This document shows, piece after piece, positions 1 through 5,679 of a stretch of DNA of 5,679 nt (positions within the stretch are counted from its first letter, which is position 1; every line of letters starts with the position of its first letter). The translations under genes and the position numbers were made by a program. The notes below the pieces were generated by a model. That model searched no databases and was not told the origin of the DNA. It was given only the letters and a program-made list of their open reading frames with translations. This DNA is from a virus. Lineage: Duplodnaviria > Heunggongvirae > Uroviricota > Caudoviricetes. Location of the stretch: IMG/VR virus record IMGVR_UViG_3300028985_000038; one strand, given 5' to 3'.

Positions 1-135
1 CGATCCGGGCGGGTACGCATTGGTGAGTTAAACTGCCTGTTCGAACATATTGACCACCAGGAGTACCGCAAAATTCTCGCGGACACTGAGCAGGAAAAGC
101 ACCTGAAAAAATTACGAGCCATAAAAAGGAAGTAA
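1..135 (+). CDS. Hypothetical phage protein, C-terminal fragment (5' end outside window)
   Basis: Frame 1 is open for 44 codons from the window edge to TAA at 133-135 (RSGRVRIGELNCLFEHIDHQEYRKILADTEQEKHLKKLRAIKRK*). Its stop sits 3 nt before the next ATG, suggesting coupling. No recognisable family; short and partial, so weak. Confidence 0.35.
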   Translation, partial: RSGRVRIGELNCLFEHIDHQEYRKILADTEQEKHLKKLRAIKRK

Positions 136-138
136 AGA

Positions 139-273
139 ATGAATAAAGCATTTGAACGATGGGTCCACCAGCGTTACGGCAATCGCTATGACCTGACGCG
201 AGATGTTGACGGCTTCTACTGTCGTGAAGTTGTGAAGCGAATGTTTGAAGTGTGGTGCCACTGCCGTGGATGA
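139..273 (+). CDS. Hypothetical small protein (44 aa), phage accessory ORF upstream of xis
   Basis: ATG at 139 preceded by AGGAAG (127-132) at 6-nt spacing; TGA at 271-273. Translation MNKAFERWVHQRYGNRYDLTRDVDGFYCREVVKRMFEVWCHCRG has a Cys/His-rich C-terminus (C28, C40, H41, C42). Below the ORF-track length cutoff; no family recognised. Confidence 0.4.
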   Translation: MNKAFERWVHQRYGNRYDLTRDVDGFYCREVVKRMFEVWCHCRG

Positions 274-291
274 AAATTTTATGAGGTTGGC

Positions 292-546
292 ATGCAGACA
301 ATTATCTATCAGATAACCCCCAGCAAATGGTGTACGGAGAGAGTCCTCATTGCATCAACAGGGCTAAAGCCTGGCACCATTGAGCGGGCAAGAAGAAAGT
401 CATGGATGCAGGGAAAAGAATACCGCCATTACGCTGTAGAAGGTGATCCGGGGCACTACAGTGAATGCCTGTACAACATCGAAGAAATTATGCGATGGAT
501 CGAAAACCAGAAACAACCAGGTGCCAAAAATGCAAGTTCCGGTTAA
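292..546 (+). CDS. xis: Putative excisionase / excisionase-like DNA-binding protein (84 aa)
   Basis: ATG at 292 with GAGG (283-286) upstream. Small basic protein immediately upstream of and co-oriented with the integrase, the canonical xis position. Sequence pattern resembles DUF1233-type putative excisionases, recalled from memory and not searched. Confidence 0.6.
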   Translation: MQTIIYQITPSKWCTERVLIASTGLKPGTIERARRKSWMQGKEYRHYAVEGDPGHYSECLYNIEEIMRWIENQKQPGAKNASSG

Positions 547-570
547 CCTGTTAATGCTCCTGGACGTCTG

Positions 571-575
571 GGAGG
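571..575 (+). promoter_or_regulatory. Ribosome-binding site (GGAGG) for the integrase gene
   Basis: GGAGG at 571-575, 4 nt upstream of ATG 580-582. Confidence 0.6.
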
Positions 576-579
576 TTTA

Positions 580-1866
580 ATGAGTAACGCATCATACCCG
601 ACAGGCGTTGAAAACCATGGAGGATCACTCCGTATATGGTTTCACTATAATGGCAAACGTGTCAGAGAAAACCTCGGTGTTCCTGACACAGCCAAAAACC
701 GGAAGATCGCTGGTGAACTTCGCACTTCCGTTTGTTTTGCAATCAGAATGGGGAGTTTCGACTACGCCGCGCAGTTCCCTAATTCCCCTAACCTGAAACA
801 CTTTGGTCTGGGAAAAAGAGAGATAACCGTTAAGGCACTTTCGGAAAAATGGTTGGACCTTAAGAAAATTGAGATTTGTGCGAATGCACTTAACCGTTAC
901 CAGTCAGTAATTAAAAACATGTTACCAATGTTAGGTGAAAAAAAACTGGTTTCATCCATAACAAAAGAGGATTTACTTTTCGTAAGGAGAGATTTGTTGA
1001 CCGGTTACCAAAAGCTTTCTAATGGAAAGACTTCTTCCATAAAAGGGCGCTCAGTGGTCACGGTAAACTACTATATGACAACCATAGCTGGAATGTTTCA
1101 ATTTGCAACAGATAATGGTTATACCTCAGGAAACCCATTTAACGGTCTGGCTCCCTTAAAAAAGTCCAAGGTAAAACCAGATCCTCTCACCCGTGACGAA
1201 TTTATTCGTTTTATTGAGGCTTGCCGTCATCAACAAACAAAAAACCTGTGGATTCTCGCTGTATACACGGGTATTCGTCACGGGGAGTTGGTATCGCTGG
1301 CATGGGAAGATATAGACCTTAAAGCAAGGACTATAACCATCCGTAGAAATTATACAAAACTTGGCGAATTCACTCCACCAAAAACCGATGCAGGCACCGG
1401 AAGGACAATTCATCTGGTTCAACCAGCTATTGATGCTCTTAAAAGCCAGGCGGAAATGACCATGCTTGGAAAGCAACATTCTGTAGAGGTGAAGCAGAGG
1501 GAATATGGGAGAACTGCTGTGCATAAATGCACTTTTGTTTTTAGTCCTCAGGTAACAAAACAGCAGCAGTTGTCCGGACCTCACTACAAGGTTGACTCCA
1601 TCAGGGAGTCATGGACAAGTATCTTAAAACGCGCAGGTCTGAGACACAGAAAATCGTACCAATCCAGGCATACTTATGCATGCTGGTCACTTGCCGCAGG
1701 AGCTAATCCTAGTTTTATCGCAAGCCAGATGGGCCACACAAACGCACAAATGGTATTCAATGTTTACGGAGCATGGATGAAAGACAACAATCACGAACAG
1801 ATAGAACTCCTTAACAAAAGACTATCTGAAAGTGTCCCATGTATGCCCCATAAGAAAGTTGGGTAA
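580..1866 (+). CDS. int: Phage tyrosine recombinase / integrase (428 aa)
   Basis: Translation shows tyrosine-recombinase motifs: box I Arg in YTGIRHGEL, box II Arg in SRHTYACW, then GHTN His and the putative catalytic Tyr in NVYGAWM near the C-terminus. N-terminal region is consistent with an arm-type DNA-binding domain. Lies directly beside the att junction. Confidence 0.93.
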   Translation: MSNASYPTGVENHGGSLRIWFHYNGKRVRENLGVPDTAKNRKIAGELRTSVCFAIRMGSFDYAAQFPNSPNLKHFGLGKREITVKALSEKWLDLKKIEICANALNRYQSVIKNMLPMLGEKKLVSSITKEDLLFVRRDLLTGYQKLSNGKTSSIKGRSVVTVNYYMTTIAGMFQFATDNGYTSGNPFNGLAPLKKSKVKPDPLTRDEFIRFIEACRHQQTKNLWILAVYTGIRHGELVSLAWEDIDLKARTITIRRNYTKLGEFTPPKTDAGTGRTIHLVQPAIDALKSQAEMTMLGKQHSVEVKQREYGRTAVHKCTFVFSPQVTKQQQLSGPHYKVDSIRESWTSILKRAGLRHRKSYQSRHTYACWSLAAGANPSFIASQMGHTNAQMVFNVYGAWMKDNNHEQIELLNKRLSESVPCMPHKKVG

Positions 1867-1889
1867 AATAAAAACTTGCAAAATCAGTT

Positions 1890-1915
1890 AGTTTACCCTT
1901 AATCCCTGTCACGTT
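1890..1915. other. Approximate int-proximal att junction (attL by lambda convention) between phage and mlrA sequence
   Basis: In-frame mlrA-like codons (VTLRAWQRRYGLLKPQRTDGG) are clear from about 1908 onward, while upstream sequence (TAA at 1869-1871, AT-rich) is phage-like. Exact core cannot be delimited without the other prophage end or an uninterrupted mlrA reference. Confidence 0.5.
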
Positions 1916-2588
1916 ACGCGCGTGGCAGAGGCGTTACGGATTGCTGAAACCGCAACGGACAGACGGCGGTCATCGGCTGTTCAACGATGCCGATATTGAC
2001 CGGATCCGCGAGATCAAACGCTGGATCGACAACGGCGTGCAGGTCAGCAAAGTAAAAATGCTGCTCAGTAATGAAAATGTTGATGTGCAGAACGGCTGGC
2101 GCGATCAGCAAGAAACATTACTGACTTACCTGCAAAGCGGCAATCTGCATAGCCTGCGAACGTGGATCAAAGAGCGCGGTCAGGATTACCCCGCCCAGAC
2201 ACTCACCACACATCTGTTTATTCCTCTGCGCCGACGACTTCAGTGTCAACAACCGACTCTCCAGGCGCTGCTGGCGATCCTCGACGGCGTACTGATCAAC
2301 TACATCGCCATCTGTCTGGCTTCGGCACGTAAAAAACAGGGTAAAGATGCGCTGGTGGTTGGCTGGAATATTCACGATACCACCCGTCTGTGGCTGGAGG
2401 GCTGGATTGCCAGTCAACAAGGATGGCGCATTGATGTCCTCGCCCACTCGCTCAATCAACTACGCCCTGAACTGTTCGAAGGCCGTACATTGCTGGTGTG
2501 GTGCGGTGAAAATCGAACCTCTGCCCAACAGCAGCAACTCACCAGTTGGCAGGAACAAGGCCATGATATTTTCCCACTCGGCATTTAA
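1908..2588 (+). pseudogene. mlrA: mlrA (yehV) 3' remnant: MerR-family curli regulator lacking its N-terminal HTH, truncated by prophage insertion
   Basis: Translation from about 1908 matches MlrA from ...VTLRAWQRRYGLLKPQRTDGGHRLFNDADIDRIREIKRWIDNG... to the C-terminus ...QEQGHDIFPLGI*. The native N-terminus (MALYTIGEVALLCDINP, recalled from memory) is absent. No in-frame ATG or RBS at the 5' end; first in-frame candidate start is TTG at 1941. Confidence 0.85.
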
Positions 2589-2647: not shown

Positions 2648-2755
2648 ATGCGCATAGCTAAAATTGGGGTCATCGCCCTGTTCCTGTTTATGGCGTTAGG
2701 TGGAATTGGTGGCGTCATGCTCGCAGGTTATACCTTTATTTTGCGTGCTGGCTAA
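2648..2755 (+). CDS. yohO: Small membrane protein YohO (35 aa, UPF0387 family)
   Basis: ATG at 2648 preceded by AGGAG (2637-2641) at 6-nt spacing. Translation [35 protein letters not shown] is a single hydrophobic helix. Matches the known small gene between mlrA and yehW in E. coli K-12 (from memory). Confidence 0.8.
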
Positions 2756-3467
2756 GTGCCTGCACCAGCCTTTCAAACAGGCGGTCTGCGATGATCGCCG
2801 CCAGTGCCACCAGTAACGCCCCCTGGATCACATACGCGGTATTAAATCCGCTAAGCCCGATGATGATCGGCGTACCCAGCGTGCTGGCCCCTACCGTTGA
2901 GGCGATCGTCGCCGTACCAATGTTGATAATCACCGAAGTTCGCACGCCCGCCAGAATCACCGGAGCCGCCAGCGGTAGCTCGACCTTACGCAGTCGCTGA
3001 CCACGACTCATTCCCATACCTTTCGCAACTTCTGTCACGCTGGCATCAATCGCTCCCAGCCCGGCAAGTGTCGCCTGTAGGACGGGCAGCACACCGTAAA
3101 GGATCAAGGCGATAATCGCGGGTTGCAGACCAAAGCCGATCACCGGAACGGCAATCGCCAGCACCGCGACGGGCGGAAAAGTCTGCCCAACGGCGGCAAT
3201 AGTTTCCACCAGTGGGCGAAATTCCGCCCCCCACGGGCGAGTGACAGCAATTCCGGCACCAGTACCAATGATCACCGCAAACAAACTCGAAATTCCCACC
3301 AGCCAGAAATGAGCCAGTGCCAGAGCTGCAAAACTCTCTTGCTGATAAACGGGTCGTGGCAGTTGTGGGAACAAGGCAGCAAACAGCGGCTGGCTGTAAG
3401 GCAGCCAGAAAATCAGTGCCACAAACAAAGCAATGAGCCAGAACAGCGGATCGCGCAACATCTTCAT
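2736..3467 (-). CDS. yehW: Osmoprotectant ABC transporter permease YehW (243 aa)
   Basis: 243-aa polytopic hydrophobic protein starting [15 protein letters not shown] with typical ABC permease features. ATG at 3467-3465 with GGAGG (rc of 3477-3481) upstream; length matches K-12 YehW. Confidence 0.93.
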
Positions 3468-3471
3468 ACGC

Positions 3472-4386
3472 TTACGCCTCCACCAGCAGATCCTGAAAAT
3501 GCAGCGTGCCGCAAGGCTCGCCCTGTGTGTTCACCACCGGCAGCACTTCACATCCCCGCGCGACAAACAGGGAGAGCGCATCGCGTAGCGTCATCTCTTC
3601 TGCCAGCGCCTCACCTTCTGCCCGTTCTTCGCGACGCACGTAATCCGCCACGCTACGTAACGAAAGCAGGCGGACACCCAGTTCACTATGCCCAAAAAAC
3701 TGGCGGACAAAATCATTCGCCGGACGAGTCAGCATCGTCAGCGGATTTCCCTGCTGCACCACTTCACCGTGATCCATCAACACCAGATGTTCTGCCAGTC
3801 GTAGCGCCTCATCAATATCATGAGTGACCAGCACAATGGTACGCCCCAGCAAACGGTGTATGCGCGTCATCTCTTGTTGCAACGCGCCGCGCGTTACCGG
3901 GTCCAGCGCGCCAAAAGGTTCATCCATCAGTAAGACTTGCGGATCGGCAGCCACTCCCACACGTTGCTGCTGACCGCCGGAAAGCTGATGCGGATAACGC
4001 TCACGCAAATTTGGCTCCAGCCCCAGTAGCGCCATTAATTCGTCGATACGATCGTCGATCCGCGCCCGTGACCATTTTTGCAATTGCGGCACGGTGGCGA
4101 TGTTTTGTGCCACGCTCCAGTGGGGAAACAGGCCAATAGATTGAATGGCATAGCCCATCCGGCGGCGCAACTCCAGCACTGGCAGCGAGCGAATTTCTTC
4201 TCCGGCAAAGCGGATCACGCCACTGTCATGCTCCACCAGGCGGTTAATCATTTTCAGAGTGGTGGATTTACCGGAGCCTGATGTACCAATCAGCACTGAA
4301 AAACTCCCCTCCTGAAAATTGAGATTGAGATCGTTAACGGCTTTTTGTGCGCCGAACAGTTTGCTGACATGGCTAAATTCAATCAT
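3472..4386 (-). CDS. yehX: Osmoprotectant ABC transporter ATP-binding protein YehX (304 aa here; apparent 4-residue in-frame loss after the signature motif)
   Basis: Walker [10 protein letters not shown], signature LSGGQ, Walker B LLMDEP and H-loop VTHD are all present. The segment after the signature reads [15 protein letters not shown] rather than the canonical ...RVGVARALAADP.... Length is 304 aa versus 308 recalled for K-12. Confidence 0.93.
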
Positions 4387-5536
4387 TACGTTTCACCTTC
4401 AGCAGTGCGATAAGCAAATCGAACAGCGCGTCGGTAAGCACCGCCAGAACAATTACCGGGATCACCCCCAGCAACACTAAATCAATGGCACTGCTTAGCA
4501 GCCCCTGGAAAACCAGCGCACCAAAACCGCCTGCACCGATTAACGCCGCAATCACCGCCATACCTACAGTTTGCACCATCACCACCCGCAGGCTGCGCAG
4601 AAATACCGGTAACGCCAGCGGTAACTGAACATGCAGGAATCGCTGCGCCCCGCTCATCCCCATCGCTCTGGCGCTCTCCAGCACATCGCGCGGGATCTGG
4701 TTCAAGCCGACTACCACGCCGCGCACCAGCGGCAGCAAGGCATAGAGCACCAGCGCAATCAGTGCGGGTGTCATTCCGGTTCCTGCTATGCCCAGCTTAC
4801 CCAGCCACGGAAAGGCCGTAACCAGCGCGGCAAGCGGCGCAATCAACAGGCCAAAGAGCGCCACCGAAGGCACGGTCTGAATGACATTGAGTAGCGAAAA
4901 AATCGCCCCCTGCCGCGCAGTGGAAAAGTAGCACCAGACGCCCAACGGCACACCAATCACTAACGCAGGCAGCACCGCACCAAACAGCAACGTCAGATGT
5001 TGTGCCAGCGCGTCGTCAAACACATCCTGACGGTTGGCGTATTCTTTCATTAGCGAGAGATCGTTAAGCGTGCCGGAGTACAGCAACCACAGCGGAATAA
5101 TGGCAATCTGCATATGCAACAACCAGCGCCACAGCGGATGCGTGGAGATTCGGCGGATGGCATCGCTACAGGCCAGCAATGCCAGCGCCGCAGCCAGCCA
5201 GAAACCACTGCCGAGGCTGGTACGCGCCAGCGCACTGCCATTTTGCGCCAGTTGGGTCGCCGCTTTTCCCGCTCCCCACACCAGCAATACGAAGACGAGT
5301 TGCGCCAGGATGAGTGCAAAAATGCTGCCTTTTCTACCGGGAATAAAACAGGCTGTCAGCCAGGCGCAACATACGCCCACCAGCATCCAGATCGTTTGCG
5401 GCCACAACTGCCAGAGATGACGCCCCTCACCAGAGACTAAACGATTAGGCGCGTAACTGATAAACGGCAGCGCCGCTGCGATTGCCGTCAGCAACAGCAG
5501 CAGCGCCAGAACAGGATTAATACGTAGATAAGTCAC
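4379..5536 (-). CDS. yehY: Osmoprotectant ABC transporter permease YehY (385 aa)
   Basis: 385-aa polytopic membrane protein ([16 protein letters not shown]...KVKRND*). Start is GTG (rc of 5534-5536); its stop overlaps the yehX start by 8 nt (ATGATTGA), indicating translational coupling. Confidence 0.92.
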
Positions 5537-5542
5537 GGGAAA

Positions 5543-5679
5543 TTACTTCGTCCACCCTTTTTGTTTCAGGTAGTCGGCAGCCACTTTTTTGGCATCCAGT
5601 CCTTCCACAGCAATGCTGGCATTCAGTTGCTGCAATGTTTTTGCATCGAGGCTGGCGAAGACTGGCTGTAGCCACTGTG
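5543..5679 (-). CDS. osmF: Glycine betaine/osmoprotectant-binding periplasmic protein OsmF (YehZ), C-terminal fragment (5' end outside window)
   Basis: Minus-strand frame is open from the window edge to TAA (rc of 5543-5545), ending ...QKGWTK*. Position immediately upstream of yehY matches the osmF-yehYXW operon order. Confidence 0.8.
   Translation of the reverse strand, partial: QWLQPVFASLDAKTLQQLNASIAVEGLDAKKVAADYLKQKGWTK

What the first reader, a model, noticed from the sequence alone, without database searches (positions are those of the whole stretch)
1..2588. Lambdoid prophage inserted within mlrA (yehV), removing the regulator's HTH domain
The integrase and xis genes abut a 5'-truncated mlrA. 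The sequence shows mlrA coding sequence beginning mid-gene (VTLRAW...) directly after the int stop and a short AT-rich spacer, with no start codon, RBS or N-terminal MerR HTH. MlrA is the MerR-family activator of csgD and curli expression. Insertion of Stx1-converting and other lambdoid prophages in yehV/mlrA is a described feature of EHEC O157:H7 and has been associated with reduced curli and biofilm. This window is therefore probably that junction, but whether the prophage carries stx cannot be judged from here.
Basis: partly seen in the sequence, partly recalled or inferred. Interest (0 to 1): 0.6.

Follow-up and report, generated by a model that had tools for sequence, protein, structure and literature searches.

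The report
Prophage end splitting curli regulator mlrA
This is the integrase end of a lambda-like prophage sitting in its well-known attachment site inside the E. coli curli/biofilm regulator gene mlrA (yehV), an ordinary and already well-described arrangement found in about 9% of complete E. coli genomes.

Summary
Window 1-1904 is the int-proximal end of a lambdoid prophage: a DUF4222 gene tail, a 44-aa ORF, xis and int. Bases 1905-1924 are the 20-bp att core annotated for phage VT1-Sakai. From 1905 to 2588 the sequence is mlrA from codon 17 to its stop, with no promoter or canonical start codon. The published yehV junction primers F/B give exactly the diagnostic 824-bp product in silico.

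Three corrections apply.
- The HTH is split between its two helices, not removed. The distal fragment still encodes the recognition helix and wing (MerR_1 profile positions 16-68 of 69).
- The sequence is not the O157:H7 Stx1 prophage, which is 97.2% identical. The prophage part is 100% identical to prophages in E. coli CE10 (O7:K1, meningitis) and AR_0013, and neither has stx annotated.
- RefSeq annotates the fragment as a 228-aa "MlrA" starting at ATC, with no pseudogene flag.

The arrangement is already known (Uhlich, Tarr and others), so interest is low. One side finding: a 12-bp in-frame deletion in yehX that I found in no other E. coli genome or public assembly.

The parts
1..135 (+). 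3' end of a prophage DUF4222-family gene; its start lies upstream of the window
   Evidence: Annotated as a DUF4222 domain-containing protein in CE10 and AR_0013 at the equivalent position. The 44-aa partial product has no Pfam hit on its own.
139..273 (+). 44-aa prophage ORF of unknown function
   Evidence: ORF listed. Annotated as a hypothetical protein (WP_001030157.1) in CE10. No Pfam hit.
292..546 (+). xis, excisionase (84 aa)
   Evidence: Pfam PF06806 DUF1233 putative excisionase, E 2e-29, full-length match. Annotated xis/xisR in VT1-Sakai and CE10.
580..1866 (+). int, lambda-type tyrosine integrase (428 aa)
   Evidence: Pfam Arm-DNA-bind_2 (residues 7-70) and Phage_integrase (203-396). 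It aligns with the catalytic domain of the Int protein in PDB 6emy, with R233, R363-H364, H386 and Y396 in the motif positions. 100% identical DNA to CE10.
1832..1851 (+). Two candidate arm-type Int-binding repeats, GTGTCCCAT and ATGCCCCAT, inside the last codons of int (inferred)
   Evidence: The motif (A/G)TG(C/T)CCCAT occurs twice here and three times in the other attP arm of PhiR5_1. It occurs nowhere else in the window; 0.15 hits are expected in shuffles. Function is inferred by analogy with lambda attP and was not tested.
1867..1904 (.). Phage arm between the int stop codon and the att core (38 bp, 26% GC)
   Evidence: Identical or near-identical in PhiR5_1 and VT1-Sakai and unrelated to the K-12 sequence upstream of the core.
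1905..1924 (.). 20-bp att core (identity segment) CCTGTCACGTTACGCGCGTG; the crossover lies somewhere within it
   Evidence: Present in K-12 attB, in both Sakai junctions, in both AR_0013 junctions and in the window. Annotated as the 'attachment site of Enterobacteria phage VT1-Sakai'.
1905..2588 (+). Distal mlrA (yehV) fragment: codons 17-243 plus stop, with no promoter or canonical start
   Evidence: Matches K-12 MlrA 17-243 apart from Q173H. Pfam MerR_1 positions 16-68/69, MlrA_helical and MlrA_C are all present. There is an in-frame TAA at 1869-1871 and no ATG/GTG/TTG until 1941.

Best explanation
Window 1-2588 is the integrase-proximal junction of a lambdoid prophage that integrated into mlrA (yehV) by Int-mediated site-specific recombination. 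The crossover fell within a 20-bp identity segment covering mlrA codons 17-23.

Shown by sequence:
- The phage arm (DUF4222 gene, orf44, xis, int, 38-bp spacer) abuts the core, followed by mlrA codons 17-243.
- The cut falls between the two helices of the MerR-type HTH.
- The distal part has lost its promoter, ribosome-binding site and start codon.
- In the nearest genomes the mlrA promoter and the first codons lie 37-50 kb away beside btsS. In AR_0013 and Sakai they end as a 22-codon stub, closed by a TGA formed at the core/phage boundary.

Inferred from published work on O157:H7 and other STEC:
- Without full-length MlrA, sigma-S-dependent csgD transcription is not activated, so curli and biofilm formation are reduced.
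- Int plus Xis can excise the prophage and rebuild mlrA exactly, because the core equals attB.
- Distal mlrA is co-oriented with int and no terminator-like site lies between them, so it can be transcribed by read-through from the prophage during induction.

The int/xis/att module is shared by Stx1a, Stx2a, Stx2d and stx-negative phages. This copy is the CE10/AR_0013 type, in which no stx is annotated.
For: - DNA matches: bases 1-1905 hit 45 phage records, with PhiR5_1 at 99.7% and VT1-Sakai at 97.2%. All 5426 complete E. coli genomes match the chromosomal part, and 453 also carry the int junction.
- Junction and core: plus the annotated att site in AP000400.
- Domains.
- Diagnostic PCR: in-silico product of 824 bp, equal to the F/B band reported in PMC3874044.
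- Far junction: the CE10 stub and truncated core; AR_0013 with both cores intact exactly 50,000 bp apart and a 22-aa stub.
- Prophage identity: the prophage part is 100% identical to CE10 and AR_0013.
- Lambdoid architecture in relatives: repressor, Q antiterminator, lysis genes, terminase and tail genes.
- Read-through: no terminator-like site on the + strand between 1866 and 2588.
- Site occupancy: the intact 100-bp attB region is present in 4944 of 5426 genomes, so about 9% are split.
- Phenotype, excision and run-off transcription: PMC5931665 reports distal mlrA up 62-fold after induction. PMC3874044, PMC10562709 and PMC13516484 add further support.
Against: - The window stops inside the prophage, so its size, completeness, stx content and the state of the far junction in this particular genome are unknown.
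- The near-identical genomes differ from each other. CE10 has lost the left ~13 kb of the prophage and 8 bp of the far core, so it cannot excise precisely. AR_0013 has both cores but a frameshifted portal and terminase.
- The curli/biofilm phenotype was not tested for this lineage. Published data are for STEC, where rpoS variation also matters.
- RefSeq annotates a 228-aa MlrA here that is not flagged as a pseudogene.
Confidence: 0.95

Rival explanations
1. The element is a locked-in defective prophage remnant. mlrA is then permanently inactivated and the insertion is not a reversible switch.
For: In CE10, which has only 3 SNPs and one indel across the whole window, the prophage is about 37 kb. 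Its far end is deleted into the tape-measure gene, the far att core is cut to 12 of 20 bp, and the portal and terminase are frameshifted. AR_0013 also has a frameshifted portal and terminase.
Against: AR_0013 matches the window equally well and keeps both 20-bp cores exactly 50,000 bp apart. int and xis are intact full-length ORFs in the window. PhiR5_1 is deposited as a complete phage genome and has a 99.7% identical int module. This rival changes only the reversibility, not the identity of the feature.
Confidence: 0.4
2. The distal fragment is a working gene. An N-terminally shortened MlrA is made, either 228 aa from ATC 1902 as RefSeq annotates or 215 aa from TTG 1941. It retains some regulatory activity, so mlrA is not simply knocked out.
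For: PGAP annotates a 228-aa MlrA (WP_042030043.1) that is not marked as a pseudogene. The recognition helix, wing, MlrA_helical and MlrA_C domains are all still encoded. A GAGG lies 9 nt upstream of TTG 1941. The fragment is co-oriented with int with no terminator between them. PMC5931665 reports that distal mlrA is strongly transcribed on induction and that recombinant fragments changed Congo-red affinity.
Against: There is no canonical start codon and no Shine-Dalgarno sequence before 1902. HTH helix 1 is missing. PMC5931665 states that the fragments did not restore biofilm or raise csgD expression and are unlikely to act as DNA-binding factors. The GAGG-TTG sequence is present in every intact mlrA and so is not evidence of an evolved start.
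Confidence: 0.1
3. The window is the Stx1-converting prophage junction of EHEC O157:H7 (Sp15/CP-933V) itself.
For: It has the same att core, the same gene order and 97.2% identity to VT1-Sakai over 1-1905.
Against: The prophage part is 100% identical to CE10 and AR_0013, whose prophages have no stx annotated. In them a 429-bp CDS annotated tolA occupies the position between the tRNA genes and the esterase/holin genes. The distal mlrA differs from Sakai at 8 of 550 positions. The same int module carries Stx2a, Stx2d or no toxin in other strains.
Confidence: 0.03
4. Bases 1-1904 are native chromosome, or the junction is an assembly artefact.
For: None found.
Against: K-12 and 4944 of 5426 genomes have mlrA uninterrupted at this point. 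453 independent complete genomes carry the same junction. The junction falls exactly at an annotated att site.
Confidence: 0.01

Closest known systems
Prophage at btsS-mlrA in E. coli CE10 (NC_017646.1, O7:K1) and AR_0013 (NZ_CP032204.1)
   Same: Window 1-1905 is 100% identical. The whole window differs from CE10 by 3 SNPs and one 12-bp indel. The core and junction are the same.
   Different: The window carries a yehX 12-bp deletion absent from both genomes. Which version of the prophage the source strain has (37 kb truncated or 50.0 kb) is unknown.
VT1-Sakai (Sp15) / CP-933V Stx1-converting prophage in yehV of E. coli O157:H7
   Same: It has the same 20-bp attachment site, the same xis-int-att order and the same split of yehV/mlrA at codon 17. 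The diagnostic F/B PCR product is also 824 bp.
   Different: DNA identity over the int module is only 97.2%. The nearest relatives of the window have no stx annotated and are not O157:H7.
Other phages with this int/att module: BP-4795 (Stx1), YYZ-2008, Stx2a_1447/WGPS2, JLK-2012, PhiR5_1, and the Stx2d prophage of RM10410
   Same: Identity to window 1-1905 is 96.6-99.7%. The RM10410 Stx2d prophage is reported at btsS-mlrA.
   Different: The cargo differs (Stx1, Stx2a, Stx2d or none), and so do the structural modules: PhiR5_1 has lambda-like head and tail genes, while CE10/AR_0013 have HK97-like head genes.
Phage lambda Int/Xis/attP site-specific recombination
   Same: It works the same way. 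The tyrosine integrase has an N-terminal arm-binding domain, xis lies next to int, int lies next to attP, and short repeats occur in both arms (2 + 3 copies, as with lambda's five arm-type sites). The lambda details are from my own knowledge.
   Different: The identity segment is 20 bp and lies inside a coding gene. Lambda's 15-bp core lies between gal and bio. The integrase sequence is only distantly related to lambda Int (E about 0.002-0.009 over residues 161-245). The first His of the HxxR motif is Tyr (Y360) here.
Gene-splitting prophages that act as regulatory switches ('active lysogeny', e.g. Listeria phi10403S in comK); from my own knowledge
   Same: A prophage interrupts a regulator gene, and precise excision restores it. 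Excision restoring mlrA and curli is cited for strain PA20 in PMC5931665.
   Different: There is no evidence that excision here is a programmed, non-lytic host-benefiting switch. PMC5931665 reports that cured cells are rarely recovered.

Membership tests
yehV/mlrA-integrating lambdoid prophages (Sp15/CP-933V type) | Attachment core CCTGTCACGTTACGCGCGTG at the junction with mlrA | tested here: met
   Window 1905-1924 is identical to the att site annotated in AP000400 and to K-12 attB.
yehV/mlrA-integrating lambdoid prophages (Sp15/CP-933V type) | Integrase and excisionase of the same type, adjacent to the junction | tested here: met
   96.6-99.7% DNA identity over 1-1905 to VT1-Sakai, BP-4795, YYZ-2008 and PhiR5_1.
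yehV/mlrA-integrating lambdoid prophages (Sp15/CP-933V type) | Diagnostic int-yehV junction PCR product (primers F/B, 824 bp) | tested here: met
   Both primers match exactly at 1395-1414 (+) and 2196-2218 (-), giving 824 bp. The published size is in PMC3874044.
yehV/mlrA-integrating lambdoid prophages (Sp15/CP-933V type) | Second junction carrying the mlrA 5' part next to btsS (yehU) in the same genome | not testable with these tools
   It lies outside the window. It is present in the near-identical genomes CE10 (truncated core) and AR_0013 (intact core).
Stx-converting phage | stxAB operon downstream of the Q antiterminator | not testable with these tools
   That region is not in the window. 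No stx is annotated in the CE10 or AR_0013 prophages.
Tyrosine recombinase / phage integrase (Pfam PF00589) with an arm-binding domain | Catalytic domain and N-terminal arm-DNA-binding domain above the Pfam cutoffs | tested here: met
   PF00589 scores 66 bits (cutoff 27.1). PF12167 scores 85.7 bits (cutoff 22).
Tyrosine recombinase / phage integrase (Pfam PF00589) with an arm-binding domain | Catalytic residues Arg-I, (His)-x-x-Arg-II, His/Trp and the Tyr nucleophile | tested here: met
   R233, R363, H386 and Y396 align with the corresponding motifs of the 6emy Int. The first His of HxxR is Y360, a position I understand to be variable in this family.
Functional MlrA (MerR-family activator of csgD) | Complete N-terminal MerR winged-HTH (helix 1, helix 2 and wing) | tested here: not met
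   MerR_1 profile positions 1-15 are absent from the fragment. K-12 MlrA matches positions 1-68.
Functional MlrA (MerR-family activator of csgD) | Own promoter, ribosome-binding site and start codon | tested here: not met
   There is an in-frame TAA at 1869-1871, no ATG/GTG/TTG before 1941, and phage sequence upstream.
Functional MlrA (MerR-family activator of csgD) | MlrA_helical and MlrA_C domains | tested here: met
   PF22270 scores 109 bits and PF22267 scores 115 bits. Residues 17-243 match K-12 apart from Q173H.

The most novel reading that the evidence does not exclude
The distal mlrA fragment could be more than debris. During SOS induction, int read-through would transcribe it. An MlrA lacking HTH helix 1, but keeping its helical and C-terminal domains, would be translated from a non-canonical start. 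That protein could titrate MlrA's partners (DgcM/PdeR, from my own knowledge of the csgD c-di-GMP module), giving the prophage a way to modulate host biofilm signalling. Because automated annotation calls this fragment an intact MlrA, genome surveys may also be counting split mlrA genes as intact with a 'phage-proximal' prophage.
Probability: 0.08. Interest if true: 0.4.

Novelty: already known. Interest (0 to 1): 0.12.

Why it matters
Prophage occupation of mlrA is an established cause of weak curli and biofilm production in O157:H7 and some other STEC, so this window adds no new biology. There are two practical points.
- The same int/att module splits mlrA in roughly 9% of complete E. coli genomes. 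These include stx-negative extraintestinal strains such as CE10, so the effect is not confined to EHEC.
- Only 48 nt of mlrA are separated, and RefSeq annotates the remainder as a normal 228-aa MlrA. Annotation-based or BLAST-based checks of mlrA integrity can therefore miss the disruption.

Tried and rejected
- Native chromosome or assembly artefact: rejected.
- The phage arm supplying a replacement N-terminus for MlrA: rejected. The in-frame phage-derived codons (KLAKSVSLPLI) follow a TAA, contain no start codon and are unrelated to MALYTIGEVALLCDIN.
- Identity with the O157:H7 Stx1 phage: rejected in favour of the CE10/AR_0013 type.
- Rfam and tRNA scans of the window found nothing.
- The promoter/terminator scan found only one promoter-like match (on the minus strand, fewer than the shuffle mean) and no + strand terminator-like site between the int stop and the end of distal mlrA.
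- An exact-protein look-up of the 304-aa YehX found nothing on record, so I could not identify the source genome.
- Shaikh & Tarr 2003 (PMC156235) is not held in the library. It is cited only through the reference lists and primer table of PMC5931665 and PMC3874044.
- Searches failed because I gave the wrong reading frame. I repeated the work correctly.
Full report
**What is in the window**

On the + strand the ORF list shows, in order:
- the last 45 codons of a gene at 1-135;
- a 44-aa ORF at 139-273;
- an 84-aa ORF at 292-546;
- a 428-aa ORF at 580-1866;
- after a 38-bp spacer, an open frame that runs to a stop at 2588.

Pfam identifies the 84-aa protein as a DUF1233 putative excisionase (101 bits). 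The 428-aa protein is a tyrosine integrase with an N-terminal arm-DNA-binding domain (PF12167, 85.7 bits) and a catalytic domain (PF00589, 66 bits). Aligned with a solved integrase (PDB 6emy), R233, R363-H364, H386 and Y396 sit in the catalytic motifs. GC content is 0.39-0.47 up to about position 1950 and 0.53-0.62 beyond.

The rest of the window (2648-5679) is the ordinary E. coli yohO-yehW-yehX-yehY-osmF region.

**The junction**

Identity with K-12 mlrA begins at window 1905 (CCTGTCACGTTACG...), which is codon 17. The upstream sequence is phage and is shared with PhiR5_1 and VT1-Sakai.

Bases 1905-1924 (CCTGTCACGTTACGCGCGTG) are present in K-12 attB, in both junctions of VT1-Sakai and AR_0013, and in the window. 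GenBank record AP000400 annotates exactly this 20-mer as the phage attachment site.

In the mlrA frame there is a TAA at 1869-1871 and no ATG, GTG or TTG before the TTG at 1941. The encoded residues 17-243 match K-12 MlrA apart from Q173H.

The published junction primers F (1395-1414) and B (2196-2218) match exactly and span 824 bp, the size of the diagnostic band. Primer A lies in mlrA codons 8-14 and is absent from the window (primers and sizes from PMC3874044).

**Correction about the HTH**

The distal fragment still matches Pfam MerR_1 at profile positions 16-68 of 69 (51.7 bits, above the 21.6 cutoff). Intact K-12 MlrA matches positions 1-68.

The insertion therefore cuts the winged HTH between helix 1 and the recognition helix. 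It does not remove the domain. The functional result is the same: the DNA-binding motif is broken, as PMC5931665 also says, and the fragment lacks a promoter and a start codon.

**Where the other half is**

The window cannot show this, but the nearest genomes can.
- In AR_0013 the mlrA promoter and first codons lie next to btsS. They are followed by the full core and phage DNA, giving a 22-codon stub (MALYTIGEVALLCDINPVTLRA) closed by a TGA at the core/phage boundary. The two cores are exactly 50,000 bp apart. Sakai has the same stub.
- In CE10 the far junction retains only 12 of the 20 core bases and runs straight into a truncated tape-measure gene. About 13 kb of that prophage has been lost, and precise Int/Xis excision is no longer possible there.

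**Which prophage it is**

- The window differs from CE10 (O7:K1, neonatal meningitis) by 3 SNPs and one 12-bp deletion. All of these lie in the chromosomal part; the prophage part is identical.
- The 2004 window bases that overlap the AR_0013 locus are also identical.
- VT1-Sakai is 97.2% identical, BP-4795 96.6% and PhiR5_1 99.7%.
- The CE10 and AR_0013 prophages have a lambdoid layout: a LexA-like repressor, Rha regulators, a replicative helicase, a Q antiterminator, tRNA genes, an esterase, holin and lysozyme, terminase, an HK97-like head and a lambda-like tail.
- Neither has stx annotated. Both have a frameshifted portal and terminase.
- The same int/att module is found on Stx1a, Stx2a and Stx2d phages.

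This is the known yehV-type junction, but it is not the O157:H7 Stx1 prophage. The relatives suggest, but do not prove, that this copy is stx-negative and possibly defective.

**How common it is**

- 453 of 5426 complete E. coli genomes cover at least 80% of the window, meaning they carry this int next to mlrA.
- A 100-bp probe centred on K-12 attB is intact in 4944 of 5426 genomes. About 455 records show two separated halves.
- Roughly 9% of complete genomes therefore have mlrA split at this core, nearly all by this integrase type.

**Mechanism**

Shown by sequence: Int-type recombination at a 20-bp core inside mlrA separates the promoter and codons 1-16 from the rest of the gene.

Inferred from the literature:
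- MlrA is needed for RpoS-dependent csgD expression.
- More than 95% of clinical O157:H7 isolates carry a prophage here, with loss or reduction of curli, biofilm and Congo-red binding.
- Spontaneous or induced excision regenerates mlrA.
- Distal mlrA is transcribed by run-off from the prophage (62-fold up by qRT-PCR) but does not restore csgD expression (PMC5931665, PMC3874044, PMC13516484).

The window is consistent with run-off transcription. Distal mlrA is on the same strand as int, and no terminator-like site lies on the + strand between the int stop and the end of distal mlrA.

Two copies of (A/G)TG(C/T)CCCAT lie at 1832-1851 inside the end of int, and three more lie in the other attP arm of PhiR5_1. 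These look like arm-type Int sites; 0.15 hits are expected in shuffles of the window. This is inference only.

**Annotation issue**

RefSeq/PGAP annotates the fragment in CE10 and AR_0013 as 'HTH-type transcriptional regulator MlrA', 228 aa. The CDS starts at the ATC equivalent to window 1902 and is not marked as a pseudogene. No Shine-Dalgarno sequence precedes that codon.

A recent survey classifies some genomes as having a prophage 'proximal' to an intact mlrA, using an 80% identity criterion (PMC13516484). Since only 48 nt are removed, such criteria might count split genes as intact. This is my inference and I did not test it.

**Side finding: the yehX deletion**

yehX (3472-4386, minus strand) encodes 304 aa instead of 308. 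A 12-bp in-frame deletion at window 3949/3950 is flanked by TGGC direct repeats. It removes four residues (ARAL/RALA) between the LSGGQ signature and the Walker B motif.
- A 40-mer across the deletion junction matches none of the 5426 complete genomes.
- The undeleted 40-mer of the same allele matches 24 genomes, which serves as the positive control.
- The exact 304-aa protein is not on record in the large public gene collection.

The deletion is either a private mutation that probably impairs the ATPase of the YehZYXW (OsmF) transporter, or a sequencing or assembly error.

**Verdict**

The arrangement is already known, so interest is low.

Noticed in passing
window 3949/3950, within yehX (3472-4386, minus strand): A 12-bp in-frame deletion relative to CE10 and K-12, flanked by TGGC direct repeats. 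It removes ARAL/RALA between the LSGGQ signature and Walker B of the YehX ABC ATPase (304 aa instead of 308). It is absent from all 5426 complete E. coli genomes, with a positive control that worked, and the exact protein is not on record in the public gene collection. It is either a private, probably function-impairing mutation or an assembly error.
   Followed up: yes
window 1902-2588 (equivalent to CE10_RS13005 and AM340_RS25175): RefSeq/PGAP annotates the truncated gene as a normal 228-aa 'HTH-type transcriptional regulator MlrA' starting at ATC, with no pseudogene flag. Annotation-based surveys would therefore miss the disruption.
   Followed up: partly
window 1832-1851; L007 (PhiR5_1), last ~150 bases: The repeats (A/G)TG(C/T)CCCAT occur twice inside the 3' end of int and three times in the other attP arm. 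TCGACGAA occurs three times in the distal arm. These are candidate arm-type Int and accessory-protein binding sites.
   Followed up: partly
L005 about 27130-27145 (CE10, btsS-side junction): In CE10 the far att core is cut to 12 of 20 bp and fused directly to a truncated tape-measure gene. The mlrA 5' stub then reads on into phage sequence for at least 100 codons. This is a deletion that locks the prophage in place.
   Followed up: yes
L009/L010 (AR_0013): att cores at 4815301 and 4865301: The two 20-bp cores are exactly 50,000 bp apart. The prophage has a frameshifted portal and terminase and no stx annotated. A 429-bp CDS annotated 'tolA' sits between the tRNA genes and the esterase, where Stx phages carry stxAB.
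   Followed up: partly
window 2421-2423 (MlrA codon 173): MlrA carries Q173H relative to K-12. This is the only amino-acid difference in residues 17-243.
   Followed up: no
window 2648-2755 (+) and 2736-3467 (-): yohO (35 aa, identical to K-12) and yehW converge and overlap by 20 bp at their 3' ends, as in K-12.
   Followed up: no
window 5606 and 5609 (osmF 3' end) and 3006 (yehW): These are the only three SNPs between the window and CE10 across 5.7 kb.
   Followed up: no
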